Below, one piece after another: positions 1 through 16,694 of a stretch of DNA of 50,290 bases. The translations under genes and the position numbers were made by a program. Origin of the DNA: Escherichia phage JLBYU07; the sequence record OK272485.1; one strand, 5' to 3'. Within the stretch, counting starts at the first letter, position 1. The number at the start of each line of letters is the position of its first letter. The notes below the pieces were generated by a model, which was not told the origin of the DNA, made no database searches, and was given only the letters and a program-made list of their open reading frames with translations.

Positions 1-930
1 TTATAGCAGTGATTCGGGCTTGTAGAGTTTTCTTTCTACGCCCTGTTTAAAATTATCGTTAACAGGCATCATTATGTCAAGCCCTCTTTCCTCTGCCGCG
101 ATTATCACATCACGATCATCTTTCCGGCAGACTACGCGCATTCTTCTTTCTCCTTTATATCTATGCGCAACCATTTCAAGATTTGAAGGAGTAAAACAGG
201 CCCACACCTCTTGACCAGTTGATAAATGAACATGCTGAGAATCAACCCAATCAAGGCACAAATAGATCGTCTTATCTGTGCTACCTGTTTTAACAACAGA
301 TCCGCGCGTGTAGTCGCGAGCTAAAAACCAATCCTTTCCATCCTCATCAATGAAAAGCACGTTACACATTTCATCATCCAGCCCGTCATCATGCACCAGG
401 TGACAAGGTAGCGCGTGAATGTATCGACCATCCTTGACGCCGCAATCATAATGACAATCTTCCGGCGGATATATCCCCTCATAAACGCTTAAAGGTGTGC
501 GATCGAATTTTAATGTTTTTGCCATCACTTTTTCGCAACATTCATGACTTGCCTGTTTCCCGAACGAGTAACCAGAAGAACGCGAAGCGCGTTTGTTTGC
601 TCTGATCCTGTAATCTTGTGGCACTTTTCCGAGGAAGCGACCCAAAATGTTGATGGCCTCGCTGTAAGGTTCGCCAGTTAATTTCATTAACCAACCGATC
701 CCCGTGTCGTTGCCGCATACGTTGCAGATCGCGCCGCCGTCGCCCTCTTCATTTAGCTTATCAGTCCATCTAAAACGATCCTTGCCGCCGCAGTGTGGGC
801 AAGGTTGATGCTTTTTGTTGAAAACATCGCTATGCAGTCCGCAAATGCTTTGTAGTGCTTCACGCCATAACCCCTTCATATATGGCAAAACATCTTCTTT
901 CTGATAGGTCATAAAGTTTTCAGTATTCAT
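1..930 (-). CDS. DNA primase (zinc-ribbon plus TOPRIM-like)
   Basis: 309 aa; zinc ribbon CPHCGG...CNVCG near N-terminus, acidic DxD/E clusters (FIDEDG, RKDDRD); GAGG RBS before ATG at 930; track ORF start at 1008 overlaps upstream gene and lacks RBS. Confidence 0.6.
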   Translation of the reverse strand: MNTENFMTYQKEDVLPYMKGLWREALQSICGLHSDVFNKKHQPCPHCGGKDRFRWTDKLNEEGDGGAICNVCGNDTGIGWLMKLTGEPYSEAINILGRFLGKVPQDYRIRANKRASRSSGYSFGKQASHECCEKVMAKTLKFDRTPLSVYEGIYPPEDCHYDCGVKDGRYIHALPCHLVHDDGLDDEMCNVLFIDEDGKDWFLARDYTRGSVVKTGSTDKTIYLCLDWVDSQHVHLSTGQEVWACFTPSNLEMVAHRYKGERRMRVVCRKDDRDVIIAAEERGLDIMMPVNDNFKQGVERKLYKPESLL

Positions 931-1549: not shown

Positions 1550-3547
1550 ATGATTCCAAATATCGAAAAACAAATATCAGCGTTAGGCGAGGCAGTAATA
1601 AAAAGCATCCAAGAGCGATTCACGGTTGGCAATATAGTGCCTTATCCTTATCAGTGCGTTGCGTATGCCGAGATCGCAAAGCGCATGAAAAACTATGAGC
1701 ATCCTTTCTTTGTTAAGGCTTCTGTGTCGGCTGGCAAAACATTGATGTTTGCGATGGTTGCGGCGCAATGCCGCAAAATGGGATTGAAAATGATGGTCCT
1801 TGCTCGCCAGGCTGAAATTGTTGATCAGGATTCGGAAGAGATCAGCAATCTTGGCGTGCCAAACTCAATCTATTGCGCCGGACTGAAAACAAAAAGCGCA
1901 TACTTTCCGATCGTGGTCGGTTCTGAGGGCACTGTAGTAAACGGATTGTTTAAGTCGTTAGGTGATTATGTTCCGCACGTTATCGGTATTGATGAATGTC
2001 ACCAGGTGGATTGGGAGGATCTCGCCGACGCGATAGAAAATAATGAATCTTACCAGCAGATGACCACTAAGAAGGATTTGCCTGTACTGATTGGAGAAGA
2101 ACAGCAATTTGATTCCAATGGCGATCCAATGTTCGGAACAGGGCGCACACAGTACACCGTAATAATCATGGAAATGATGCGCAGGTGTCGCGAGGCATAC
2201 GGGCACGAATTGCGAATATTCGGTATGACTGGATCTGAATTTCGCGGCGTTGTTCCAATACTGGTTGAAGATAAGAACAAAAAGGGATTCTGGCGTGAGC
2301 AGGTGACTAACATAGACACAAACTACTTAATCAAATTCGGTTCGGTAGTGCCAACAAACTTCGGCGACGTAGGCGACCTGGGTTATGACCTTTCAGAGTT
2401 CGAAGCCAGTAGCGAGGATGGCGTTTCAGACTTTGACGCTAAAACATTGCGCAAGATGGAAGAAAAGATCCATCAAGACGCAACAATGACACAGAAAATC
2501 ATGGCTAAAGTCCATGAGATATGCAAAGACAGGAACGGAGTTTTAGTTACATGCGCAGGGGAAAGACACTGCAAGGAGGCCGCCGCCGCACTGCCGCCAG
2601 GCGTTGAATACAGGATCATAACTGGCAAGACTGGAGATAATCAGCGTAAAGAGTGGCTGAGGGAGGCATACGAGGGAAAAGTAAAATACATCTTCCAGGT
2701 ACAGGCGCTTACCACTGGCGTTAACGTTCCGTTTTGGGATACTTCGGTAATACTGAGAAAGATAGGATCTCTAACATTGCTTATCCAGCTTTTGGGGCGC
2801 GGTATGCGACTGCTTAAGCAATGGCACATTGAGCAGGGATTCAAGAAAAAAGACCATCTTGTATTGGATTTTGCCGGTACTATGGATGAGTTAGGGGATT
2901 TGTATTTCGATCCAATCCTTGAGCAAGCGCAATTCCAAAAGAGATTTACAAACGGGAAAGAGCCTAAGACTTGTCCGATATGTGGAACGCTAAACAGCTT
3001 TTACGCTCGCCGATGTATGCACGTAGACGATAACGGGAAGAGATGCGAGCATTTTTGGACTTACAGAATTTGCGAGGACCAGGTAGATCCGAGAACGAAA
3101 AAGATAATCAAGCGCGGTTGCGGAACAAAAAACGACGTAGTGGCGAGAGTATGCCGTTGTTGCGATATTTCTCTTGTCGATCCTAACGAGAAGTTAAGCG
3201 GTAAGCACTACACCAAAAACGATTGGTGCAACGTTAAATCTTTCCGCGTTGATATGACGAAAAACCAGAAAGGAATTATTTTTTGCTATGAGCTTGAGGC
3301 CAACGGCGACACGTTCAAGGCATACGAAAGATTTTTCCCTGAGTCAGAAAGCAACATTTGCAGGACGATATGGAGAAAAATAGCATTGCAGCACATACCG
3401 GATCGCAAGATTGCTGGTATGGTGGCGAGCTATAGAAATGCGCGTAAAATAATGTCATACGCTCATCACATCATGCCGCCTGTACGCGTAACGCATCGCA
3501 AAAACGGCAAAGGTGAGGATAACATTGCAAAACGGGAGTTTGTTTAA
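1550..3547 (+). CDS. SF2 (DEAD/DEAH-type) DNA helicase
   Basis: 665 aa; Walker A SVSAGKT, DECH box (GIDECHQ), C-terminal Cys clusters (CPICG, CRCC). Confidence 0.8.
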   Translation: MIPNIEKQISALGEAVIKSIQERFTVGNIVPYPYQCVAYAEIAKRMKNYEHPFFVKASVSAGKTLMFAMVAAQCRKMGLKMMVLARQAEIVDQDSEEISNLGVPNSIYCAGLKTKSAYFPIVVGSEGTVVNGLFKSLGDYVPHVIGIDECHQVDWEDLADAIENNESYQQMTTKKDLPVLIGEEQQFDSNGDPMFGTGRTQYTVIIMEMMRRCREAYGHELRIFGMTGSEFRGVVPILVEDKNKKGFWREQVTNIDTNYLIKFGSVVPTNFGDVGDLGYDLSEFEASSEDGVSDFDAKTLRKMEEKIHQDATMTQKIMAKVHEICKDRNGVLVTCAGERHCKEAAAALPPGVEYRIITGKTGDNQRKEWLREAYEGKVKYIFQVQALTTGVNVPFWDTSVILRKIGSLTLLIQLLGRGMRLLKQWHIEQGFKKKDHLVLDFAGTMDELGDLYFDPILEQAQFQKRFTNGKEPKTCPICGTLNSFYARRCMHVDDNGKRCEHFWTYRICEDQVDPRTKKIIKRGCGTKNDVVARVCRCCDISLVDPNEKLSGKHYTKNDWCNVKSFRVDMTKNQKGIIFCYELEANGDTFKAYERFFPESESNICRTIWRKIALQHIPDRKIAGMVASYRNARKIMSYAHHIMPPVRVTHRKNGKGEDNIAKREFV

Positions 3548-7562: not shown

Positions 7563-7954
7563 TGAAGAAATTTTTACTTACACCAATCGCAATGGCGGTG
7601 ATCTTGTCTGGATGTTCAAGCGTTACGCCACTGACCGGATTAATCGGCAGTAAGCCGGAAATCACAGCGCAGGCTGGCGCGGAGAACGTGAAGCAGACAG
7701 TTGGCATTACAGCAAGGCAGGACGCCAGCACAAAACAGGAAACCACAATAAAGGAATCTGCGGTTGACAAGGTGGACACGTCCAGCAAGAAGGATTTCAC
7801 AACATCAACCATTCAGGCCAATACCATCAAGGCAGACAAAATTCAGGTCGTGCAGGGTAATAACGGCAGATGGTACGATCCAGTAATCATATGCGTGGTT
7901 GTGTTTCTTGTGCTGATTTGTCTTTACTGGATAGAAAAGAAAAAGGAGGCTTAA
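7559..7954 (+). CDS. unimolecular spanin (T1 gp11-type)
   Basis: 131 aa; lipobox LSGC after signal peptide plus C-terminal [20 protein letters not shown]; ATGA overlap with endolysin. Confidence 0.7.
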
Positions 7955-7972
7955 CGCCTCCTTTATTTTTAT
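7944..7972. terminator. bidirectional rho-independent terminator
   Basis: hairpin AGGAGGCTTAACGCCTCCT flanked by A-run upstream and T-run downstream; sits between convergent genes. Confidence 0.6.
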
Positions 7973-8193
7973 GCGTCGGGCCACATATGGCTTTCGTTTG
8001 TTGGCTTGTTCGATTCGTCGTACTTCCTTACTTCAATGCTGCAAGTGTCGCCGTATAGTCCTGCAATCTTGCGCTCATTTTCAACCGCCGATTGCTCACT
8101 CCAGCCTGAATCCTTATCGTAAACTGTCGGGATTTCAGAAGAAGATCCATTTGCATGATTGTATACGCGAACTACTAAAAACTTGCTGGACAT
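7969..8193 (-). CDS. hypothetical protein
   Basis: 74 aa from ATG 8193 with AAGGA RBS; track start 8244 is non-ATG. Confidence 0.5.
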   Translation of the reverse strand: MSSKFLVVRVYNHANGSSSEIPTVYDKDSGWSEQSAVENERKIAGLYGDTCSIEVRKYDESNKPTNESHMWPDA

Positions 8194-8254
8194 AATTTTT
8201 CCTTTTTGGTTGTTTCGTTTCGATGAAACAAATATACCCGACACTAGGCCGGGC

Positions 8255-8275
8255 GTTTTAACAAAAAATGCTATT
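8255..8275 (-). promoter_or_regulatory. conserved intergenic box copy (minus orientation, variant GCAT)
   Basis: followed on the minus strand by the same GCCCGGCCTAGTGTCGGG hairpin seen at 5032. Confidence 0.6.
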
Positions 8276-8390
8276 CAATACGCTTTAACGTAACCAGTAA
8301 TACACCATCATCATTGCATAAAACATGTTCAGTGGTGCTAAAAGCGCGCATATCTGAATAAAGCAGCGTAAGTAACGCATGAATAAAATC

Positions 8391-8786
8391 TCATGTGAGA
8401 TTGAATTTACGGCGCAGTGCTTCAAGATCTTGTCTATTAGCTTTTGCCTGGAACAATTCATCATCGCCCATCTCCCCTATTCTAGCCATATCCCTGATCC
8501 AGTCGTTGCGCATACCATCCAGGCTATACAATTCGAATCCGAAAGGCCGCTTTGACGATCCTTTGGACCAGTATTTTCCGCAGACTCCATCTATATAACC
8601 AGCCGTCATCATTCTTGCGCAAAATTCCTTAGATGCAAGGCTGGCGAACATTCGCGGCGTAAGTCCGGCGGCCCGTGCGAGCCGCTCACATTCTCTATGC
8701 TGATAGATAAATTTGGCTATGTGCTGCCTGTTAAACCAGTCGTATGACTCACACCATTTATACAGATCAAGCAAAAACATAATCAT
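8391..8786 (-). CDS. hypothetical protein
   Basis: 131 aa; ATGA-coupled to upstream ATPase gene. Confidence 0.5.
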   Translation of the reverse strand: MIMFLLDLYKWCESYDWFNRQHIAKFIYQHRECERLARAAGLTPRMFASLASKEFCARMMTAGYIDGVCGKYWSKGSSKRPFGFELYSLDGMRNDWIRDMARIGEMGDDELFQAKANRQDLEALRRKFNLT

Positions 8787-10363
8787 CCCAGCAGTATTGG
8801 ATTGACAAAAATAACACCATTAATCACACAAACATAATTTCTTTCTTCCAGCATTGGCAGCAAGTGCCCTTCTATCCTCTTCATTACGCCAGCCTGACCA
8901 ACGAAAGGTTTTACCTTTCTCGCTGATTCGTACAGGGCGCGAATATTCAGGATCCCTTTGTTGGCCTTGCCGTGCCTCGTGATCAATTCAATCAATTTAC
9001 CCATTTCAGCATCATCACCAGCATAACCAGAAGCATTGGCGGCGCTAATGTATGTTTTGCTCAATTCCTGAAACATGATCAACGCCTCTTGCATTGTTTC
9101 CACGTCGATCTCTTTCGACTTCTGCGGGTATCCGGCAGGATTAAACCAGTTACGGATAACATGCAGGACGGAAGCAAGCCTGATCACCTGTTTATCCATT
9201 TTACCAAGCGCACCGCGTAACATTGTATGAGAATACTTTCCTCCGTCTGCAAGATGCGGTTCCATATCCTGGCGAGCAATGTTGAGCACTCGCATAGCTG
9301 AACGGCTTATTTTCAGCGATATATTTGATTCGCTCATGATGTTATGCACCAATTGATAATATTGGGCTTTCAATTCAGAATCCACCGCCTCATAGGTAGA
9401 ATCACCATTTTCATCAATGAATGAGCGACGGCCTAAGAATGATTCCTCGCGGACCAACAAAAAACGCTCACTAACACCGATGCCTCGCGATCCAGCGTCC
9501 ATGATTCCGCTTATCGTTTCATCCTGGGCTATAACGCTCATACATCCAAGCGCGCGAAAACTCATATTATTGTCAGCATTAGCACGGGCAATTGATACGT
9601 GACCATTATCCCACGCCTTAAGCACTAGCTCACTGTTAGTCTTTCTTTCGCTATTTGCATAGGTCAAGCCTAACAGACTGTTAATACTTGTTGCTTCGTC
9701 AGATATTACGGCAAAGTTACCTTGCTTGTTGTTGATTTTCGCCAAGCCTTCTGGAGTTGTATCTGAAACAGGAAAAGTTATATCACACATTTTTTCCAGC
9801 TTTTCCTCCAGATCCTCTTTTTCCTGGTATAGAGATTCCATATCAGCGCCGGATCTTTCGCTTTTCATCTCCTTTGCAAGACCTGCCAGCTTTGCCTGTA
9901 TTTTCTTTCTTTCCTTGCGGCGTTGCTCGTTGATCTTCTCAACTTCCGCAATCATCGGAGCGATAGCCATGCTGTTGATCGCAGATTTACCAGTTGACGG
10001 CGGCTGGCTTGTAACGACGTAAAGCGCAGTCGGCTGATCGGTTCCGTGATAGTCAACCGTAAAACGTCCAAGCATAGCGGCAGAAATGCAGCCGATAAAG
10101 TGCATGTAAGCCGATGATTCAGGGAATTGAACGGATCGCGCAATGCTGCGTGATAACTTGCCGACAACATCAATATCATTACCAAGAGAAATAACGGGGT
10201 AGCGATCGTGACCGCTATTCACATCCTTTACGTCGCCCCAAAAGCTGGACGACTGGCGATAGCCGTTAGCCTGAATTGATACGCGAACTGGTGAGAGGTT
10301 CTGGCTTTCAGCCATAGCGATTATTTGCTGTGGAGTTAATTTGTTCGTTTCTAATGAAAACAT
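8783..10363 (-). CDS. P-loop NTPase, putative replication-associated ATPase (DUF3987-like by inference)
   Basis: 526 aa; Walker A PPSTGKS and Walker B FAVISDE separated by a Lys/Glu-rich coiled-coil insert; AGGAG RBS. Confidence 0.5.
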   Translation of the reverse strand: MFSLETNKLTPQQIIAMAESQNLSPVRVSIQANGYRQSSSFWGDVKDVNSGHDRYPVISLGNDIDVVGKLSRSIARSVQFPESSAYMHFIGCISAAMLGRFTVDYHGTDQPTALYVVTSQPPSTGKSAINSMAIAPMIAEVEKINEQRRKERKKIQAKLAGLAKEMKSERSGADMESLYQEKEDLEEKLEKMCDITFPVSDTTPEGLAKINNKQGNFAVISDEATSINSLLGLTYANSERKTNSELVLKAWDNGHVSIARANADNNMSFRALGCMSVIAQDETISGIMDAGSRGIGVSERFLLVREESFLGRRSFIDENGDSTYEAVDSELKAQYYQLVHNIMSESNISLKISRSAMRVLNIARQDMEPHLADGGKYSHTMLRGALGKMDKQVIRLASVLHVIRNWFNPAGYPQKSKEIDVETMQEALIMFQELSKTYISAANASGYAGDDAEMGKLIELITRHGKANKGILNIRALYESARKVKPFVGQAGVMKRIEGHLLPMLEERNYVCVINGVIFVNPILLG

Positions 10364-10415
10364 TCGTTAGCTTCTCCTTTGTGGGCCGTAAATTTTAACG
10401 GCCCAATACTACCCC

Positions 10416-10437
10416 GTTTTGTCAAAAAGTGCTATTT
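10416..10437 (-). promoter_or_regulatory. conserved intergenic box copy (minus orientation, TTGACA variant)
   Basis: TAG is stop of gene 10432-10653; followed by hairpin GGGCCGTTAAAATTTACGGCCC then RBS of ATPase gene. Confidence 0.6.
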
Positions 10438-10653
10438 GATCCGCTCTATTGCAACCAGAAGTCGATCAGGCTGGCGGTCGCTGTAGCATTCTCCTGTAAT
10501 CCCATCCTTAAACGTAAAGTAAAGCGCCTTATGATATGAAAAACCAATCAGCCAACCTACCGCCGTTTTTTTGATGGGCCTGACTATATCGCCAGGCTTG
10601 AAAGTCTTTGTGGTAGAATGCGTTACTTTATAACGGTTTTCACTGTTTATCAC
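10432..10653 (-). CDS. hypothetical protein
   Basis: 73 aa; stop TAG inside conserved box copy. Confidence 0.5.
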   Translation of the reverse strand: MINSENRYKVTHSTTKTFKPGDIVRPIKKTAVGWLIGFSYHKALYFTFKDGITGECYSDRQPDRLLVAIERIK

Positions 10654-11036
10654 AGATATTTGCCCTCAAACAGATAACAGCCGCCAGCAGAGAATCCGAC
10701 CTCTTCACGGTACAGGTTCCAGCGGTCGCCGCACTCATCAAAAACATAACCCGCAACGCTTCCAAGCGGTCGCCCTTTCTCGATCTGGTATCGCTTGCCC
10801 TGCTTAAAGTGCTTTTTGCACGGCATGTTATGATCTACAAACGTGCAAATAACGGTTTTTGTGTTAATGGCGCGGTAATCATCTCGGTTTGCTGGAAGCC
10901 AGCGGCTACCCTTAACAAGCGTCTTAACCTGGAATTCTTCCACCTCGATCACATCATCACTTCCTGCAATCTTCTGATAAACCGTTTTAAAACGGCCTTT
11001 CATCAATACGTTGGTTTCATTACAGATAACATTCAT
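10650..11036 (-). CDS. hypothetical protein
   Basis: 128 aa; AGGAG RBS. Confidence 0.5.
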   Translation of the reverse strand: MNVICNETNVLMKGRFKTVYQKIAGSDDVIEVEEFQVKTLVKGSRWLPANRDDYRAINTKTVICTFVDHNMPCKKHFKQGKRYQIEKGRPLGSVAGYVFDECGDRWNLYREEVGFSAGGCYLFEGKYL

Positions 11037-11089
11037 GATTAGATCTCCTTTGTTTGTTCGATGTGATTATGCCAGGTTTTTACACCTGG

Positions 11090-11110
11090 CTTTTAACAAA
11101 AAGTGCTATT
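11090..11110 (-). promoter_or_regulatory. conserved intergenic box copy (minus orientation)
   Basis: TAG is stop of MTase-like gene; followed by hairpin GCCAGGTGTAAAAACCTGGC and ATAATC. Confidence 0.65.
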
Positions 11111-11816
11111 TTGAATTTGACTCAAAGACGGCGCGAGCAAATCCGCGCGGAGTGAGGGAGCGTAGTTGCTTTGTTCTGGCAGACTTACCGCCTAAAAACT
11201 TCCAACCCCAAAAGAACATTACGCCATCATCATTGGATAACGGCTTGCGTTCCGGTTCGGTAAATCCGTTGCCGCACCAGATAGCCGTCCTTTTAGTGTA
11301 GCCATCCTTTAGCGGCATTTTGGGGTGAAATGACCCATCGGATTCGTCCAAGTAGTTACCAAAATCGCGCGGATTGAAATAAAAATCCGGCTTGCGCCAT
11401 AGCGTTGATAGTCGGCCTACCGGATTCTCAGCCATCCAGGGAACACCGAAATGATTTCCGACTTTTTCAACCATGATTGCATTTTGGAGCGCGATATGAA
11501 TATCGTCTTCGCTGCGCACATGCTTACTTCCTGATTGGGCGAACATGGTGCAGTCTGGAAAGCCAAATACAATATCAGGTTTTGGAATATCCATCTTAAT
11601 GATGTTTTCAATGAAATTTTCATCAATCCACATATTCACATAATGCAGATTTTCATGCTTCATTTTGATGAAATATTCTCCGTGATTGCCTTCGTCAGCG
11701 TTAAAGCAATAGCATTGATAACCAGCCTTCGCATATTCAAGCAACATGATTCCAGATCCATCAAACATTGAGTAAGCAACTTTATTTCCCATGATTTTTA
11801 TGATACCCCAATTCAT
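11106..11816 (-). CDS. compact C5-cytosine methyltransferase-like protein
   Basis: about 236 aa (start ambiguous 11792/11816/11852); motif I FDGSG, motif IV-like GFPDCTMFAQSG, motif VI ENP, motif VIII-like KRTAIWC; minimal TRD, no clear motif X; stop TAG in box. Confidence 0.45.
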   Translation of the reverse strand: MNWGIIKIMGNKVAYSMFDGSGIMLLEYAKAGYQCYCFNADEGNHGEYFIKMKHENLHYVNMWIDENFIENIIKMDIPKPDIVFGFPDCTMFAQSGSKHVRSEDDIHIALQNAIMVEKVGNHFGVPWMAENPVGRLSTLWRKPDFYFNPRDFGNYLDESDGSFHPKMPLKDGYTKRTAIWCGNGFTEPERKPLSNDDGVMFFWGWKFLGGKSARTKQLRSLTPRGFARAVFESNSK

Positions 11817-12309
11817 TCTCGGCTTTACGTTTTGCGGCAACAGCATCTCCAAAACTGGAGAAACAACCTATATAAATCCTACTTCCTCGCTTTCCGCTTC
11901 CAACCCTTACAATCCACTTGCCATGTTTATTTTTATGCACGCCTGGTATGCCACTTGTATTGTTTTTCTGCTTTGATGTGTTTCGCATATTTCCTTTGTG
12001 ATCTTTTAACTCAAAGTTTATTGCTCTGTTATCAGTCGTAATGTGATTTACGTGATCAACCTCCATTCCTTCCGGTATAGGCCCATAGTGCATTTCATAG
12101 CATATTCTATGAACTTTCAGGTTATAACGTTTTCCGTTTACAGTAAGTGCGGTTTCTAAATATCTGCCACCACTACCCAAAGAGCCAACCTCATTACCAG
12201 CATTACAAGCATTCCATTGTTTAACTCTTGATTGGTGAATATCTTTTCTTTCTTTCCAGAACAGCTTTCCGGTTTCTGGATTGTATGTAAAGTAATCGTG
12301 CCAATTCAT
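11782..12309 (-). CDS. HNH homing endonuclease (with AP2-like DNA-binding domain)
   Basis: 175 aa; HNH core EVDHVNHITTDNR; C-terminal GIPGVHKNKHGKWIVRV...YIGCFSSFGDAVAAKRKAE; GAGGT RBS. Confidence 0.8.
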   Translation of the reverse strand: MNWHDYFTYNPETGKLFWKERKDIHQSRVKQWNACNAGNEVGSLGSGGRYLETALTVNGKRYNLKVHRICYEMHYGPIPEGMEVDHVNHITTDNRAINFELKDHKGNMRNTSKQKNNTSGIPGVHKNKHGKWIVRVGSGKRGSRIYIGCFSSFGDAVAAKRKAENELGYHKNHGK

Positions 12310-12317
12310 TCATTACC

Positions 12318-12542
12318 TCAAAACGGAAAACAGCGCGCACAACCAGGATCGAAATCGCATCCACAATCATTAACAATCATAGTGGGATCTGCAAATATTG
12401 CGCTTGATTCAAGATCCATATCCATATCACCTAAAGCCTCATCAAGAGTCTTAATTTTATATGCCACTTCAAGCGCCGCCTCTTTATTTAGTCCGGCATC
12501 TTCTGCCATTTGAAGGCGCTCAAAAAATCCGTCTTGACTCAT
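12318..12542 (-). CDS. hypothetical acidic protein
   Basis: 74 aa; acidic, Cys cluster at C-terminus. Confidence 0.45.
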   Translation of the reverse strand: MSQDGFFERLQMAEDAGLNKEAALEVAYKIKTLDEALGDMDMDLESSAIFADPTMIVNDCGCDFDPGCARCFPF

Positions 12543-12655
12543 CGCATAATCCCCTTAATAACAGCCAAGATAATAGCCAGGCCAGCAGCAGTAACCAAAA
12601 AGCCAACCGCGCCAATAATCGAATAAAAAAAGAAATCAATAGCCTTATCTATCAT
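12539..12655 (-). CDS. small single-TMD membrane peptide
   Basis: 38 aa, below track threshold; GAGGTG RBS; MIDKAIDFFFYSIIGAVGFLVTAAGLAIILAVIKGIMR; stop overlaps next ATG. Confidence 0.5.
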   Translation of the reverse strand: MIDKAIDFFFYSIIGAVGFLVTAAGLAIILAVIKGIMR

Positions 12656-12697
12656 TTTCCACCTCATTTAAAAGGCGGCAAAACGCCGCCAGATTAA

Positions 12698-12925
12698 TTA
12701 AAGAGCACGCCAACTTTGAATATAGAAAGCGTTTTCTTCCAGTAATTCTTTTAACTGATCTTTATTGTATTTGCGCACCTTACCGCCTGGATGGATACCA
12801 ATAAGATAGCCGCCTTTGCCCTCGGTGATAGTGATTTGGCTAATTCCACAAGACTTATCAAGTTTTACAGCAACGCGGTGATGAGCGTCAATAGTTGACA
12901 TAATGTTTAAAACTTTTGCTTTCAT
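12698..12925 (-). CDS. hypothetical protein
   Basis: 75 aa; GAGGA RBS. Confidence 0.5.
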   Translation of the reverse strand: MKAKVLNIMSTIDAHHRVAVKLDKSCGISQITITEGKGGYLIGIHPGGKVRKYNKDQLKELLEENAFYIQSWRAL

Positions 12926-13033
12926 TTAAATATCCTCAATTGAAATATGAATGACGTGGCGCTCTTTTTCCGTCGCCGCCGTAATGGTCATTTGCAACCG
13001 CCACCATCCAAGCGTTTTTGAAAATAAATAGCC

Positions 13034-13246
13034 TCATTTCTTATTTTTCAGCTTAAATTTATGACCTGGAACACCAGCGCCAATATACCCATCGTTGTAT
13101 TCCATTAAATAAAGGTGAAGACCATTATCTGAAATTACATGAGGATCTTCTTTGAGATTTCCCATTAGTGGATATTCTTTTCCGCGCGTAAATTTCCAAA
13201 TTGAGTTATAAGTTTCTACGCATTTAAGTTTTAATTGCTTTGCCAT
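13034..13246 (-). CDS. hypothetical protein
   Basis: 70 aa; TAATG coupling with upstream gene. Confidence 0.5.
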   Translation of the reverse strand: MAKQLKLKCVETYNSIWKFTRGKEYPLMGNLKEDPHVISDNGLHLYLMEYNDGYIGAGVPGHKFKLKNKK

Positions 13247-13527
13247 TATGCGATCCCAGTTACGTTAAAACTTACAGCCTTTGTTGCGCTAAATACATAA
13301 GCATCAACAGCGCCGCCAAATACACGAATTTTACCCTGGCCGTACTGCGCATTCATATTTCGCCAAACCGTTCTATTAGAGCAGAATGCGCTACCAGTCT
13401 TAATAAGCGTATCCATCTCTTTTCTTAGATCGCGATAGTCCAGCCAGAATCTAAAGGCACGCTGTTTAATTCGCGCCGCCTTGATTTTTTCTCTTGCGCT
13501 ATTGAAATCATTCTTTTCGTATGCCAT
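13246..13527 (-). CDS. hypothetical protein
   Basis: 93 aa; TAATG coupling. Confidence 0.5.
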   Translation of the reverse strand: MAYEKNDFNSAREKIKAARIKQRAFRFWLDYRDLRKEMDTLIKTGSAFCSNRTVWRNMNAQYGQGKIRVFGGAVDAYVFSATKAVSFNVTGIA

Positions 13528-13724
13528 TAAATGATCTCCATGTATGTTTCAAAGCCATTTAACTTGAACAGTCCGTTTTCACATTTGCGCACGTTCCAAG
13601 TTAGCCCTGAGTGGTACGCCTCCATATCATCAAGGTCAATGGTGATTTCAGCACCTTTCTTAAACAAACCTTTTTCGTGAGACTTGTCGCGCTTAACAAC
13701 TTTAACATCAACCTGATTTTCCAT
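13527..13724 (-). CDS. hypothetical protein
   Basis: 65 aa from ATG 13724 with GAGGA RBS (track start 13775 non-ATG). Confidence 0.5.
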   Translation of the reverse strand: MENQVDVKVVKRDKSHEKGLFKKGAEITIDLDDMEAYHSGLTWNVRKCENGLFKLNGFETYMEII

Positions 13725-13778
13725 CTTTAAATCCTCGTTTGTTGTCGATGGGTGTAATATACCATTCAGGAGCACATC

Positions 13779-13800
13779 GTTTTTAACAAAAAGTGCTATT
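13779..13800 (-). promoter_or_regulatory. conserved intergenic box copy (minus orientation)
   Basis: between genes 13800-14063 and 13527-13724. Confidence 0.6.
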
Positions 13801-14063
13801 TAGTCCAGGAATTCGATTTCACGCTCTCCAGTTAACGGATCCACAAGCCAGAATCCGAGCGGTTCGCCGTGAACACCGCCATAGAATCCAAGCGCCGTCA
13901 GATCTTCACCTTTAACAAATACCAGTTTTCCGCTACGGCCTACGTGAGACACGTTAACGATAACCGGAAATGTGCGATCCTTAAATGCAGGACGCAGGGC
14001 GTAACATCCGTTGTTGAGCAAACGTGCTTTGCGCTTAACTGGAATAGGTGCATTAATTTTCAT
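13800..14063 (-). CDS. hypothetical protein
   Basis: 87 aa; AAGGAG RBS. Confidence 0.5.
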   Translation of the reverse strand: MKINAPIPVKRKARLLNNGCYALRPAFKDRTFPVIVNVSHVGRSGKLVFVKGEDLTALGFYGGVHGEPLGFWLVDPLTGEREIEFLD

Positions 14064-14075
14064 GGTTATTACTCC

Positions 14076-14288
14076 TTATCGTAAAGATTTAAAGACGTAT
14101 AGTTTATTGCGGTAACTATATATCCGCATTGTTATTTCTCGCAGTGCAATATATTCCTTCCTGTTTTCCGGCAGACTGGCGAGCAACAACAGGCAGTATT
14201 TATAAGCGCGGTCAAGATTTCTTTCCGTGCCCCTGCAATATCCCTTGTTGCGCCTGGAGCGGTACAGCCATAACAATTTCTTGAACAT
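14076..14288 (-). CDS. hypothetical Arg/Cys-rich protein
   Basis: 70 aa; ATG 2 nt after stop of upstream gene; upstream part of track ORF 14076-14474 rejected. Confidence 0.3.
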   Translation of the reverse strand: MFKKLLWLYRSRRNKGYCRGTERNLDRAYKYCLLLLASLPENRKEYIALREITMRIYSYRNKLYVFKSLR

Positions 14289-14289
14289 T

Positions 14290-14499
14290 TCAGATACGCC
14301 CATACAGATCGCAAACTTCGTTGATAAAACAGCGTTGAGACTCTTTATCCTGCTTCTCAAACATCGCACGGCACTCATAGCGGTGATTATGCACGATGAC
14401 AACAACCATATTTTCAGGCGCTGACGGGTGACGCGCGGAAGCGTCGCAGATTGAAACATCCATACCCATCTCATGTGCTTTCTTGATCACATCCAACAT
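14290..14499 (-). CDS. hypothetical protein
   Basis: 69 aa from ATG 14499 with AGGAG RBS. Confidence 0.45.
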   Translation of the reverse strand: MLDVIKKAHEMGMDVSICDASARHPSAPENMVVVIVHNHRYECRAMFEKQDKESQRCFINEVCDLYGRI

Positions 14500-14753
14500 T
14501 TTTTCTTCTCCTGCAATAAGCAAACATCATTGATAAAATCAGTGCGGCCCTTAATGTTGCTGATGTGGAACGTCTTTTCAGCGTACAGGCCATCACCTTC
14601 AATCACGATCATTACGCGAGTCGGTTTATTCACGGGCGCACATGAAAATAGTGGGCGCACCGGAAGAAATTTAGTAGCCACATCCAGGTTAGCCCTGGCG
14701 GCCCTGCAAAACGCCTCCGCCAGATCCAAATCATTTTCGGTAATCACCGCCAT
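14487..14753 (-). CDS. hypothetical protein
   Basis: 88 aa; TAATG coupling to upstream gene. Confidence 0.5.
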   Translation of the reverse strand: MAVITENDLDLAEAFCRAARANLDVATKFLPVRPLFSCAPVNKPTRVMIVIEGDGLYAEKTFHISNIKGRTDFINDVCLLQEKKKCWM

Positions 14754-15025
14754 TACTTCTTGATCTCCTTACTGATAAATTTCAGCACCTGGCGCAAGAA
14801 AACTTCGTTGTTGATAGTCGCTGGCAATTCTTCTTTCACTTCTTGCGGCAGATAGATATTACCGTGCCAGGTCAAGCAATCGTAGTTAATACGATAAGAG
14901 CAAAGCCACTCGCAATCGTTATCTGCTTCCCATATGCAGAGTTGCAGAACATCGCCAAAATCTTCAACAGTCAGATCCAGACCGTGACGCTTAGCGAAAT
15001 TGAAAGTGGTTTTGCTGATGTTCAT
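14753..15025 (-). CDS. hypothetical protein (first gene of leftward early operon)
   Basis: 90 aa; AGGAG RBS; downstream of divergent control region. Confidence 0.5.
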   Translation of the reverse strand: MNISKTTFNFAKRHGLDLTVEDFGDVLQLCIWEADNDCEWLCSYRINYDCLTWHGNIYLPQEVKEELPATINNEVFLRQVLKFISKEIKK

Positions 15026-15084
15026 TTACTATCTCCTGAGCGGTTCGTTTCGATGTGTGTAATGTACCCGATCAGGTGGCCTGA

Positions 15085-15106
15085 GTTTTAACAAAAAGTG
15101 CTATTT
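15085..15106 (-). promoter_or_regulatory. conserved intergenic box copy (minus orientation)
   Basis: at head of leftward early operon, about 60 nt upstream of gene 14753-15025. Confidence 0.6.
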
Positions 15107-15134
15107 GACGGTTATCGCCAGGATTGCGATCGAA

Positions 15135-15212
15135 ATAATCAAAAGTAATCATTCGTAATCAAATCACGTCAAAATGATGATTGCCTTTGCAAATTTGATG
15201 AGAAAAGTAATC
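15135..15212. promoter_or_regulatory. cluster of TAATCA iteron-like repeats in divergent control region
   Basis: AGTAATCATTCGTAATCAAATCACG ... AGTAATCACGTTTAATCATTGG; four or more TAATCA units. Confidence 0.45.
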
Positions 15213-15659
15213 ACGTTTAATCATTGGTTGCAGGGGAGATAGTGAAACCTTCCCCTCTTGCCTCACTTTTCCGCCTGGCTGTCAGTGGTTGTTGTCTTTT
15301 GTTCACCCCTGTTACCGATTTCAGGCGGCGTGTTTCCGCGCGGTTTTCCGGTGTAGCGAAAACGGAAAAAACAAAAAAAATCCTATATAATACATTGAAA
15401 ATAAAGATTATTTATTTATATATATCTATAATGTTTTCTTTTTGTTCTCACTGTTACAGTGCTTTTTGTTGGGTGTGGTGTGGTTGTGTGTTGGTATATA
15501 TGGATAGTTGCGCGCGCGGCGGATTGCATATGTATATATACTTTTTCCGGCGGATTGCGTTAACAGCGCGAACAGAAAAATAACAGCCCTGAAATCAACA
15601 ACTTGCGCATGATTTTGTAGTTTTTCGATATTGGTAACGTTTTGAATACAACAAAAACA

Positions 15660-15687
15660 TTGACACGCACCAAATAGCTTTTATAAT
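15660..15687 (+). promoter_or_regulatory. near-consensus sigma70 promoter (TTGACA-N16-TATAAT)
   Basis: TTGACA at 15660-15665, TATAAT at 15682-15687; about 30 nt upstream of GGAGG RBS of gene 15719. Confidence 0.6.
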
Positions 15688-15718
15688 GCGCCAACAGTCA
15701 ACAACTGGAGGAAAGGAA

Positions 15719-16183
15719 ATGGAACAGAAGACCACTAAGGACTATTGCGATTGGCTTCGCGAGCTTGGTCGCCGCCTGGCTAGTGGCGATATTGAAGAGT
15801 ATAAAATGTCACTAATTGACCTGGCCGGAATGTTAAGCGGTGACGACTGCTACAAGATCACGCGCAGTTCATCCTACAGCCGGACCATTATCAACCGCGT
15901 TCCAGAAGTAAGGGCCGCAGGTCGGGTAAGCATCAAGGTAGAGGAAACGGAAGATGATAAATTTTACGTTTTCCGCATGGTCCGCGAATCGAAAAGGAAA
16001 ATCATCACGCCAGAAGAATTGCCAGCCATCAAGGCAAGGGCGATCAAAAAGTTTGCCGATCGCTTACTGGCAGCAATCCCGAATATCGTTGACCTGGAAG
16101 GGGATAAACTGGCTGGGGCTTGCGAGGGCGTAAGCCGCTACCAGGATATGATCCGCGAAATCATCAAAGAGGAAGAGCAATGA
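15719..16183 (+). CDS. hypothetical early protein
   Basis: 154 aa from ATG 15719 (GGAGG RBS); track start 15686 lies inside the -10 hexamer. Confidence 0.55.
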   Translation: MEQKTTKDYCDWLRELGRRLASGDIEEYKMSLIDLAGMLSGDDCYKITRSSSYSRTIINRVPEVRAAGRVSIKVEETEDDKFYVFRMVRESKRKIITPEELPAIKARAIKKFADRLLAAIPNIVDLEGDKLAGACEGVSRYQDMIREIIKEEEQ

Positions 16184-16452
16184 AAAAGGCATTAATCAGC
16201 GTTTTGGCGGCAATGGCATTCCTGACCGGATGCAAAGAAGATGGCGCGCATGTTGGCAATGTGCAGATGGCTAACCCTGGCGATGCCTACAGCGTAAGGG
16301 AGCTATTCACCGCTGACGGTTGCACCGTTTACCGATTCTATGACGATCGCACTGTTTACTTCACCAACTGCAAGGGCGCTACTAGCTGGGAAGTGTCGAA
16401 AAGCAATGGCAAAGGCACGAAGACAGAACATATGACCGTCGAAACAAAATAG
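16180..16452 (+). CDS. lipoprotein (candidate receptor-blocking superinfection-exclusion protein)
   Basis: 90 aa from ATG 16180; signal peptide plus lipobox LTGC; stop TAG in conserved box. Confidence 0.55.
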   Translation: MKKALISVLAAMAFLTGCKEDGAHVGNVQMANPGDAYSVRELFTADGCTVYRFYDDRTVYFTNCKGATSWEVSKSNGKGTKTEHMTVETK

Positions 16453-16468
16453 CACTTTTTGTTAAAAC
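16448..16468 (+). promoter_or_regulatory. conserved intergenic box AATAGCACTTTTTGTTAAAAC
   Basis: exact copy; TAG is stop of lipoprotein gene; ATAATA 23 nt after TTGTTA. Confidence 0.65.
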
Positions 16469-16469
16469 T

Positions 16470-16694
16470 CAAAAGCGATAACCAGGCATAATACACACAT
16501 AGACGGGCGGCAAGGATTGCTGCGGGAGAGGAGTAACGCAGGGGCTTGATCGAAGTGTCAGGATTCCCAACCGTGAGGCCAGAACTATCACACTAGCCAC
16601 CAGGCAGAACGCTAGATAGGTCACTGAGCTGAGGCTACCGACGAAGTGAAGCCCGTCACCAAAGATTAAACGGTTATTTATGTGAAAGGGGTTA
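16470..16694 (+). ncRNA. candidate structured non-coding RNA or long structured leader
   Basis: 225 nt with no ORF in any plus frame, GC-rich; long-range pairing GACGGGC (16502-16508) with GCCCGTC (16651-16657); internal hairpins CTGCG...CGCAG and CTAGC...GCTAG. Confidence 0.3.

What the first reader, a model, noticed from the sequence alone, without database searches (positions are those of the whole stretch)
8783..10363. Large P-loop ATPase with a coiled-coil insert between Walker A and B
Seen in sequence: 526 aa with Walker A PPSTGKS and Walker B FAVISDE separated by a Lys/Glu-rich insert (INEQRRKERKKIQAKLAGLAKEMK...EKLEKM). Inference: this resembles primase-associated replication ATPases (DUF3987-like), but the assignment is from memory of motif architecture only. 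It lies in the leftward accessory block, away from the primase and helicase.
Basis: inference. Interest (0 to 1): 0.45.

Follow-up and report, generated by a model that had tools for sequence, protein, structure and literature searches.

The report
T1-like phage MCM-type DUF3987 helicase
This gene encodes the DUF3987-family, MCM-like ring ATPase that T1-like coliphages carry as their predicted replication helicase; it is real and well conserved, but already annotated and described, so the finding is ordinary.

The parts
8783..10363 (-). Complete ORF, 526 aa: DUF3987-family AAA+ (MCM-like, SF6) ATPase and predicted helicase
10374..10379 (-). AAGGAG ribosome-binding site, 10 nt upstream of the ATG
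   Evidence: read directly from the sequence
10073..10363 (-). N-terminal helical region (residues 1-97). Residues 1-80 lie outside the Pfam model. No OB fold or zinc motif. Role unknown; a partner- or DNA-binding collar is only an inference
9983..10006 (-). Deviant Walker A / P-loop QPPSTGKS (residues 120-127). Q120, P121, P122, S123, G125, K126 and S127 are invariant in 26 homologues
9791..9952 (-). Lys/Glu-rich helical hairpin (residues 138-191). The Walker A helix (126-166) runs on and a second helix (172-191) follows. First helix net charge +4, second helix -5
9695..9715 (-). Walker B FAVISDE (residues 217-223). E223 is invariant; D222 varies (D/A/S/T/E) in relatives
9554..9601 (-). Predicted pre-sensor-1 beta-hairpin (strands 255-258 and 267-270) with invariant R260 in the connecting loop. 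Candidate DNA-contacting element by analogy with MCM
   Evidence: role inferred
9518..9547 (-). Strand beta-4 plus the conserved IAQDE motif (residues 273-282). Candidate sensor 1: Q280 or D281
   Evidence: assignment inferred from AAA+ topology
9461..9472 (-). S298-E299-R300-F301, immediately before strand beta-5. E299 and R300 are invariant. SRF-like arginine-finger candidate, as in MCM
   Evidence: role inferred
9029..9379 (-). Alpha-helical lid domain (residues 329-445) with the conserved motif R383-G384...G387-K388-x-D390. Sensor 2 candidate
   Evidence: role inferred
8786..9016 (-). C-terminal winged-helix domain (residues 450-526). It also matches the stand-alone PHROG 7327
8391..8786 (-). 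Downstream 131-aa ORF whose ATG overlaps the helicase stop codon (ATGA). Predicted winged-helix protein, conserved next to the helicase in T1 (ST10, 53% identity). Possible DNA-binding partner; the link is inferred only
1..930 (-). DnaG/T7-type primase (Zn_Ribbon_Prim, PHROG 510). The presumed working partner, encoded 7.85 kb away
7942..7964 (.). Bidirectional terminator-like hairpin. It closes the leftward unit that contains the gene, and also the rightward lysis cassette
   Evidence: T1 has an annotated terminator at the equivalent place

Best explanation
The gene encodes the DUF3987-family AAA+ ATPase of a T1-like phage (Drexlerviridae, Warwickvirus). It is a distant, MCM-like (superfamily 6) relative of the archaeal and eukaryotic replicative helicases. 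Most likely it assembles into a ring, presumably a hexamer. ATP would bind at subunit interfaces (P-loop K126, Walker B E223, arginine finger R300 supplied by the neighbouring subunit). The ring would translocate on single-stranded DNA through the central channel, with the pre-sensor-1 hairpin (R260) contacting DNA, and so unwind the phage chromosome at the fork. The phage's own DnaG/T7-type primase (window 1..930) would prime, and host DNA polymerase III would synthesise, because the phage encodes no polymerase. The C-terminal winged helix, and possibly the coupled small winged-helix protein downstream, would provide DNA or origin binding. The Lys/Glu-rich helical hairpin that extends the Walker A helix is a family hallmark. 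It is most plausibly a protruding arm for subunit or partner contacts. What is shown: family membership, motif conservation, predicted fold, and gene neighbourhood and fusions in relatives. What is inferred: ring assembly, helicase activity, polarity, role at the fork, and the role of the hairpin.
Against: No experiment on any T1-like orthologue was found. In this genome the gene is neither adjacent to nor co-oriented with the primase; it is 7.85 kb away, in a block rich in small ORFs, a methyltransferase and an HNH endonuclease. The phage also has an SF2 helicase next to the primase, which the TLS reannotation treats as 'the' helicase of the replication region (PMC11447400). The helix-2-insert beta-hairpin and the N-terminal OB/zinc domain of true MCMs are absent from the model, so the MCM mechanism cannot simply be transferred. 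The one characterised DUF3987 helicase runs 5'->3', opposite to MCM. The oligomeric state and the position of the hairpin relative to the pore could not be modelled here.
Confidence: 0.75

Rival explanations
1. It is an initiator or origin-opening ATPase, or a loader, rather than the fork helicase. It would bind the phage origin through its winged helix, melt DNA, and recruit the primase and a host helicase (DnaB). That would make it functionally closer to ORC/Cdc6 or lambda O/P than to MCM.
Confidence: 0.12
2. It is a recombination or repair motor (branch migration, or fork restart) that supports recombination-dependent replication and concatemer formation. On this view it resembles MCM8/9, ComM or RuvB rather than the primary fork helicase.
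Against: The same clusters also hold the primase. Fusions are with primase or DnaB-N modules, not recombination modules. The SF2 helicase plus VRR-NUC pair already fits the fork-remodelling and recombination role.
Confidence: 0.1
3. It is an accessory defence or counter-defence ATPase carried in a variable early-gene block.
Against: No PADLOC hit. It is conserved at full length across hundreds of T1-like phages and beyond, unlike accessory genes. Family-wide links to primases.
Confidence: 0.03

Closest known systems
Phage T1 ST9 and its orthologues in Drexlerviridae (annotated 'DNA helicase' / 'putative helicase'; 'yfiJ: putative ATPase' in TLS)
   Same: Orthologous: 58% identity over the full length to T1 ST9, and 100% identity to the proteins of phages swan01 and KMB46. 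Same position in the leftward block, followed by the same small ORF.
   Different: Nothing of substance. This is the same gene in a near-identical phage.
AgaPH, the PriCT-DUF3987 helicase of a pAgo-carrying mobile element (PMC11724360)
   Same: [quoted passage not shown] AgaPH is oligomeric and is an ATP/dATP-dependent 5'->3' DNA helicase that binds its primase-polymerase.
   Different: AgaPH has an N-terminal PriCT domain and partners an AEP primase-polymerase encoded next to it. The window protein has a different helical N-terminus and a DnaG/T7-type primase 7.85 kb away.
Phage N4 dns protein and other phage DUF3987 proteins listed by Kazlauskas et al. 2016 (PMC4889955)
   Same: Same family. 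[quoted passage not shown] N4 dns is essential for replication.
   Different: N4 dns carries a C-terminal AEP primase domain. The window protein has no primase domain.
MCM (archaeal MCM, eukaryotic Mcm2-7, MCM8/9)
   Same: Same functional logic: a polymerase-less element that supplies a primase, a ring helicase and a winged-helix DNA-binding domain, and borrows the host polymerase. The T1 primase is annotated as similar to P4-type alpha primases.
Cch / Cch2 (SCCmec) and SaPI5 primase-helicase, the self-loading helicases of staphylococcal mobile elements
   Different: Much weaker similarity than to MCM, different Pfam families, and no helical hairpin reported.

Membership tests
DUF3987 (Pfam PF13148) | Match to the family HMM above the curated gathering score, over most of the profile | tested here: met
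   152.9 bits against a cut-off of 27, E=1.7e-44; residues 81-430 on profile positions 3-350 of 364
DUF3987 (Pfam PF13148) | [quoted passage not shown] | tested here: met
   QPPSTGKS at 120-127 and the Walker B glutamate E223 are invariant in 26 homologues and aligned in 255 of 265 relatives
DUF3987 (Pfam PF13148) | [quoted passage not shown] 2016) | tested here: met
   [not shown]
DUF3987 (Pfam PF13148) | Co-occurrence with an AEP or DnaG primase, either fused, adjacent or in the same element (typical of the family, not strictly defining) | tested here: met
   A DnaG/T7-type primase is encoded in the same genome (window 1..930). It is NOT adjacent: 7.85 kb away. Adjacency is seen in pYD38-B and near-adjacency in Akira. 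Fusion to a DnaG zinc finger is seen in P0150.
DUF3987 (Pfam PF13148) | ATP-dependent DNA unwinding by an oligomer (shown for AgaPH only) | not testable with these tools
   Needs biochemistry. See PMC11724360 for the one tested member.
Superfamily 6 / MCM-like AAA+ helicases | AAA+ core whose closest structural relatives are MCM proteins | tested here: met
   [not shown]
Superfamily 6 / MCM-like AAA+ helicases | Pre-sensor-1 beta-hairpin | tested here: met
   Strands 255-258 and 267-270 lie immediately before beta-4 in the model, with invariant R260 between them. Prediction only.
MCM family proper (Pfam PF00493) | Match to the MCM HMM | tested here: not met
   No MCM hit at E<=1 in Pfam. No PDB sequence match with either the single sequence or the profile.
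MCM family proper (Pfam PF00493) | Helix-2-insert beta-hairpin between Walker A and Walker B | tested here: not met
   The model has no beta-hairpin between residues 126 and 217. It has two long helices (126-166 and 172-191) and an uninterrupted short helix at 204-214.
MCM family proper (Pfam PF00493) | N-terminal OB-fold / zinc-binding DNA-binding domain | tested here: not met
   Residues 1-97 are predicted helical plus a loop. No Pfam hit in this region.
SF3 helicases (poxvirus D5, P4 alpha, VirE-type) | Match to the D5_N, Pox_D5, VirE or related SF3 profiles, or an SF3 fold as best structural match | tested here: not met
   [not shown]
Known anti-phage defence ATPases (PADLOC-DB) | Match to any defence-system protein model | tested here: not met
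   No hit at E<=1

The most novel reading that the evidence does not exclude
In T1-like phages this MCM-fold ring helicase, and not host DnaB, drives the fork for the bacterial Pol III holoenzyme. That would make a natural hybrid replisome. The helicase would run 5'->3' on the lagging strand like DnaB, as AgaPH does and as the DnaB-N and DnaG-zinc-finger fusions hint. The family-specific charged helical hairpin, present where MCMs lack one while the MCM helix-2 insert is missing, would be the arm that docks the primase or another partner, or that sets the reversed polarity. No DUF3987 structure has been solved, so this would define a structurally new branch of AAA+ helicases in a classic model phage.
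Probability: 0.25. Interest if true: 0.45.

Novelty: already known. Interest (0 to 1): 0.15.

Why it matters
For genome annotation it matters little. The gene is already labelled 'DNA helicase' in RefSeq records of T1-like phages. The family was assigned to the MCM-like superfamily 6 in 2016, and one member was shown to be a helicase in 2025. The open points are modest but real. No T1-like orthologue has been tested. No DUF3987 structure is solved (no PDB sequence match). The family-wide helical hairpin after the Walker A helix has no assigned role. How an MCM-like motor would cooperate with a DnaG-type primase and host Pol III is also unknown. T1-like phages are abundant, easy to grow and widely used in defence-system screens, so they would be a convenient system to settle these points.

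Tried and rejected
1. NCBIfam and PADLOC scans of the protein gave no hits, so there is no curated bacterial equivalog and no defence assignment.

2. PDB sequence searches, with the single sequence and with a 26-sequence profile, gave only composition-driven noise from the Lys/Glu helices (AUGMIN, a kinesin/EB1 coiled coil, Mre11) at E>0.3. The weak Pfam hits to WWC1 and OmpH (E 0.03 and 0.19) have the same cause. I rejected all of these as homology.

3. I looked for iterons or an origin-like repeat array in and around the gene (7900-11100). Only short chance-level repeats turned up. One 30-nt imperfect repeat lies inside the Lys/Glu-coding segment.

4. The promoter scan of 7800-16500 found fewer sigma-70-like sites than shuffled sequence, and none convincing on the minus strand near the gene.

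5. The hairpin just upstream of the ribosome-binding site (10383-10404) does not fold significantly better than shuffles (z=-1.68) and has no T-run. I do not claim it as a feature.

6. I tried to link the gene to the classical T1 DNA-negative genes 1 and 2. The T1 genome paper (PubMed 14972552) is not held, and the supplements of Kazlauskas et al. 2016 are not held.

7. I searched for defence-escape or sensing data on this protein in Drexlerviridae. The Druantia/Zorya, Avs and Stokar-Avihail papers do not mention it.

8. Model coordinates are not exposed to scripts. I therefore could not measure where the hairpin points, and no multimer prediction was available.

Full report
**Observation**

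The window holds a 526-aa ORF on the minus strand at 8783..10363. It has an AAGGAG ribosome-binding site at 10374..10379.
- PPSTGKS at residues 121-127.
- FAVISDE at residues 217-223.
- The Lys/Glu-rich strings at residues 144-167 and 187-192.

The 89 residues between the two motifs are 28% Lys+Glu, against 13% for the whole protein.

**Identity**

- Pfam gives DUF3987 (PF13148) at E=1.7e-44 (152.9 bits, cut-off 27), covering residues 81-430 on profile positions 3-350 of 364.
- PHROG 2373 'DNA helicase' matches end to end at E=2.6e-244.
- NCBIfam and PADLOC give nothing.
- The window is almost a whole T1-like phage genome. It is 99.4% identical over 8000-11000 to Escherichia phage JLBYU10 (Drexlerviridae, Tempevirinae, Warwickvirus). 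There the gene is JLBYU10_16, 'putative helicase'; RefSeq records of sister phages call it 'DNA helicase'.
- The protein is 100% identical to that of phages swan01 and KMB46 and 58% identical to T1 ST9, 'DNA helicase'.
- tblastn finds it in 925 phage records, 911 of them nearly full length.
- A profile search of 1.84 billion cluster representatives finds 6168 relatives at E<=1e-3 and 401 at E<=1e-30.

**Structure**

An AlphaFold2 model built from a 26-sequence alignment is confident (mean pLDDT 88.2, pTM 0.85).
- Foldseek against the PDB independently gives MCM subunits (best E=6.7e-6).
- By sequence there is no solved relative at all.

Reading the model's secondary structure together with the invariant columns of the alignment gives this layout:
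- Helical N-terminal region, residues 1-97.
- Strand beta-1 (115-119), then the P-loop Q120-S127.
- Helix alpha-1, which continues without a break to residue 166, then a second helix at 172-191.
- A short beta-2 near residues 196-200, and helix alpha-2 at 204-214.
- Strand beta-3 (217-221), followed by D222 and E223.
- A beta-hairpin (strands 255-258 and 267-270) with invariant R260, leading into beta-4 (273-279) and the conserved IAQDE motif.
- S298-E299-R300-F301 immediately before beta-5.
- A helical lid (329-445) with R383-G384...K388-x-D390.
- A winged helix at 450-526.

The SERF motif mirrors the MCM 'SRF' arginine finger, and the hairpin before beta-4 mirrors the MCM pre-sensor-1 hairpin. 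These equivalences are inferred from AAA+ topology.

**The 'coiled coil'**

I read it as an intramolecular two-helix hairpin that extends the Walker A helix. It is not an intermolecular coiled coil.

It is a family trait. In 255 relatives with both motifs aligned, the distance from the Walker A Lys to the Walker B Glu has a median of 97 residues (range 54-115). Distant members fused to other domains still show a comparable charged segment. The first helix is net basic (+4) and the second net acidic (-5); this polarity recurs in 75% of relatives.

The model has no beta-hairpin anywhere between Walker A and Walker B. The helix-2 insert that defines MCM and its closest AAA+ relatives is therefore missing, and the helical hairpin sits one element earlier, between alpha-1 and beta-2. 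One further family detail: the Walker B aspartate is not conserved (D, A, S, T or E), whereas the glutamate is invariant.

**Context**

The annotated genome lists no DNA polymerase and no DnaB-type helicase. It encodes:
- a DnaG/T7-type primase (Zn_Ribbon_Prim, PHROG 510) at window 1..930 (minus strand);
- a Cro/YdaS-like regulator;
- an SF2 helicase (1550..3547) paired with a VRR-NUC nuclease;
- exonuclease VIII, Erf and SSB.

The DUF3987 gene is 7.85 kb from the primase. It lies near the end of a leftward unit that stops at a bidirectional terminator-like hairpin at 7942-7964. The counts of phage records per host genus for this protein track those for the primase (Escherichia 294 vs 316, Klebsiella 420 vs 469, Shigella 37 vs 37, Citrobacter 18 vs 19).

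In more distant relatives the gene sits in the replication module:
- In Vibrio phage pYD38-B (27% identity) it is immediately followed by a PHROG-510 primase, then an SF2 helicase, exonuclease VIII and SSB.
- In Salmonella phage Akira (36% identity) it is about 650 bp from the primase, in one primase / SF2-helicase / exoVIII / Erf / SSB cluster.
- Among long relatives, P0150 carries an N-terminal DnaG CHC2 zinc finger. P0180 carries a DnaB N-terminal domain in front of the DUF3987 module. P0259 carries an NrS-1 primase-polymerase helix-bundle domain, though that match is below the Pfam cut-off.

**Literature**

- Kazlauskas et al. 2016 (PMC4889955) assigned phage DUF3987 proteins to SF6 and linked them to MCM by HHsearch at 98% probability. 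They noted the C-terminal winged helix and frequent primase fusion or adjacency, and predicted that these proteins are replicative helicases. Phage N4 dns, which is essential for replication, belongs to the family.
- Kazlauskas et al. 2018 (PMC5862659) list DUF3987 among the helicase-substituting ATPase domains of primase-polymerases.
- A 2025 paper (PMC11724360) showed that a PriCT-DUF3987 protein, AgaPH, is an oligomeric ATP/dATP-dependent 5'->3' helicase. [quoted passage not shown]
- The 2024 TLS reannotation (PMC11447400) discusses only the primase and the adjacent SF2 helicase as replication genes, and notes the lack of a polymerase.
- I found no experiment on a T1-like orthologue.

**Mechanism**

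The best-supported reading (confidence about 0.75) is that this is the phage's ring-shaped replicative helicase. ATP sites would form between subunits (K126 and E223 in cis, R300 in trans). The R260 hairpin would contact DNA in the pore. The winged helix would bind DNA or a partner. The phage primase would prime and host Pol III would synthesise. Polarity is open: the fold says MCM (3'->5'), but the only tested family member runs 5'->3'. The fusions to DnaB-N and DnaG modules fit a DnaB-like lagging-strand role. The helical hairpin is most plausibly a protruding contact arm; this is inference only.

Rivals:
- An initiator or loader role (0.12).
- A recombination or branch-migration motor (0.10).
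- An accessory defence or counter-defence ATPase (0.03).

**Membership**

The protein is a clear member of DUF3987 and of the MCM-like (SF6) branch by predicted fold. It is not an MCM family member proper: there is no PF00493 hit, no helix-2 insert and no OB/zinc N-terminal domain. It is not an SF3 (D5 / P4-alpha) helicase.

**Verdict**

The gene is already known and routinely annotated. Interest is low (0.15). What remains is experimental: helicase activity, polarity, partners, the role of the hairpin, and a first structure for the family.

Noticed in passing
window 10650..11036 (-): A 128-aa ORF two genes upstream of the helicase. It has no Pfam hit and falls in PHROG 2684 (unknown function). 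It is 99% identical to SECphi27 gp13, the only 128-aa CDS in the SECphi27 RefSeq annotation. Stokar-Avihail et al. (bioRxiv 10.1101/2022.08.27.505566) report that a '128aa protein of unknown function from SECphi27' triggers Mokosh type I. This ORF is probably that trigger. JLBYU10 mislabels it 'phosphoglucomutase/phosphomannomutase'.
   Followed up: partly
[not shown]
   Followed up: partly
window 11782..12309 (-): An HNH endonuclease ORF (PF13392) lies between the methyltransferase gene (11106..11852) and the next small ORF, overlapping the start of the former. It is present in JLBYU10, but SECphi27 has no HNH gene at this place. T1 has a different HNH gene (ST8) directly upstream of its helicase ST9. 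This looks like mobile homing-endonuclease polymorphism around the helicase block.
   Followed up: no
residues 441-525 of the protein (window about 8786..9043); Klebsiella phage KL NC_049838 6230-6508: The C-terminal winged-helix module also matches a separate PHROG (7327, unknown function; E=1.3e-37). tblastn finds it alone in Klebsiella phage KL, in an unannotated stretch. Several Drexlerviridae records show a second matching place. The module seems to exist as a stand-alone or duplicated gene.
   Followed up: no
P0180 (666 aa; metagenomic relative): A natural fusion of the DnaB N-terminal (primase-binding) domain to a DUF3987 AAA+ module, in place of the RecA-type DnaB motor. P0150 fuses a DnaG CHC2 zinc finger to DUF3987. 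Both hint that DUF3987 can stand in for DnaB.
   Followed up: partly
Walker B position, residue 222 (window 9698..9700): Across the family the Walker B aspartate is replaced by A, S, T or E in many members, while the following glutamate is invariant. The P-loop is the deviant QPxxxGK[ST] (some distant members have QPPAxxK[ST], which resembles the MCM P-loop).
   Followed up: partly
window 10383..10404 (-): A perfect 7-bp GC-rich hairpin (GGGCCGT-N8-ACGGCCC) lies between the upstream ORF and the helicase ribosome-binding site. It has no T-run, and its folding is not significantly better than shuffled sequence (z=-1.68). It may be an mRNA processing or stability element, or nothing.
   Followed up: partly
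window 7942..7964: A 9-bp-stem hairpin flanked by T-runs on both strands. It acts as a bidirectional terminator-like site between the rightward lysis cassette (holin, endolysin, spanin) and the leftward early block. T1 has an annotated terminator at the equivalent place.
   Followed up: no
L001 / OK272486 (JLBYU10) annotation: Many product names in the closest GenBank record look like spurious transfers from weak hits: 'phosphoglucomutase', 'polyribonucleotide nucleotidyltransferase', 'zonula occludens toxin', 'Ellis van Creveld protein 2 like', '26S protease regulatory subunit 7', 'cytochrome C''. They should not be used as evidence.
   Followed up: no
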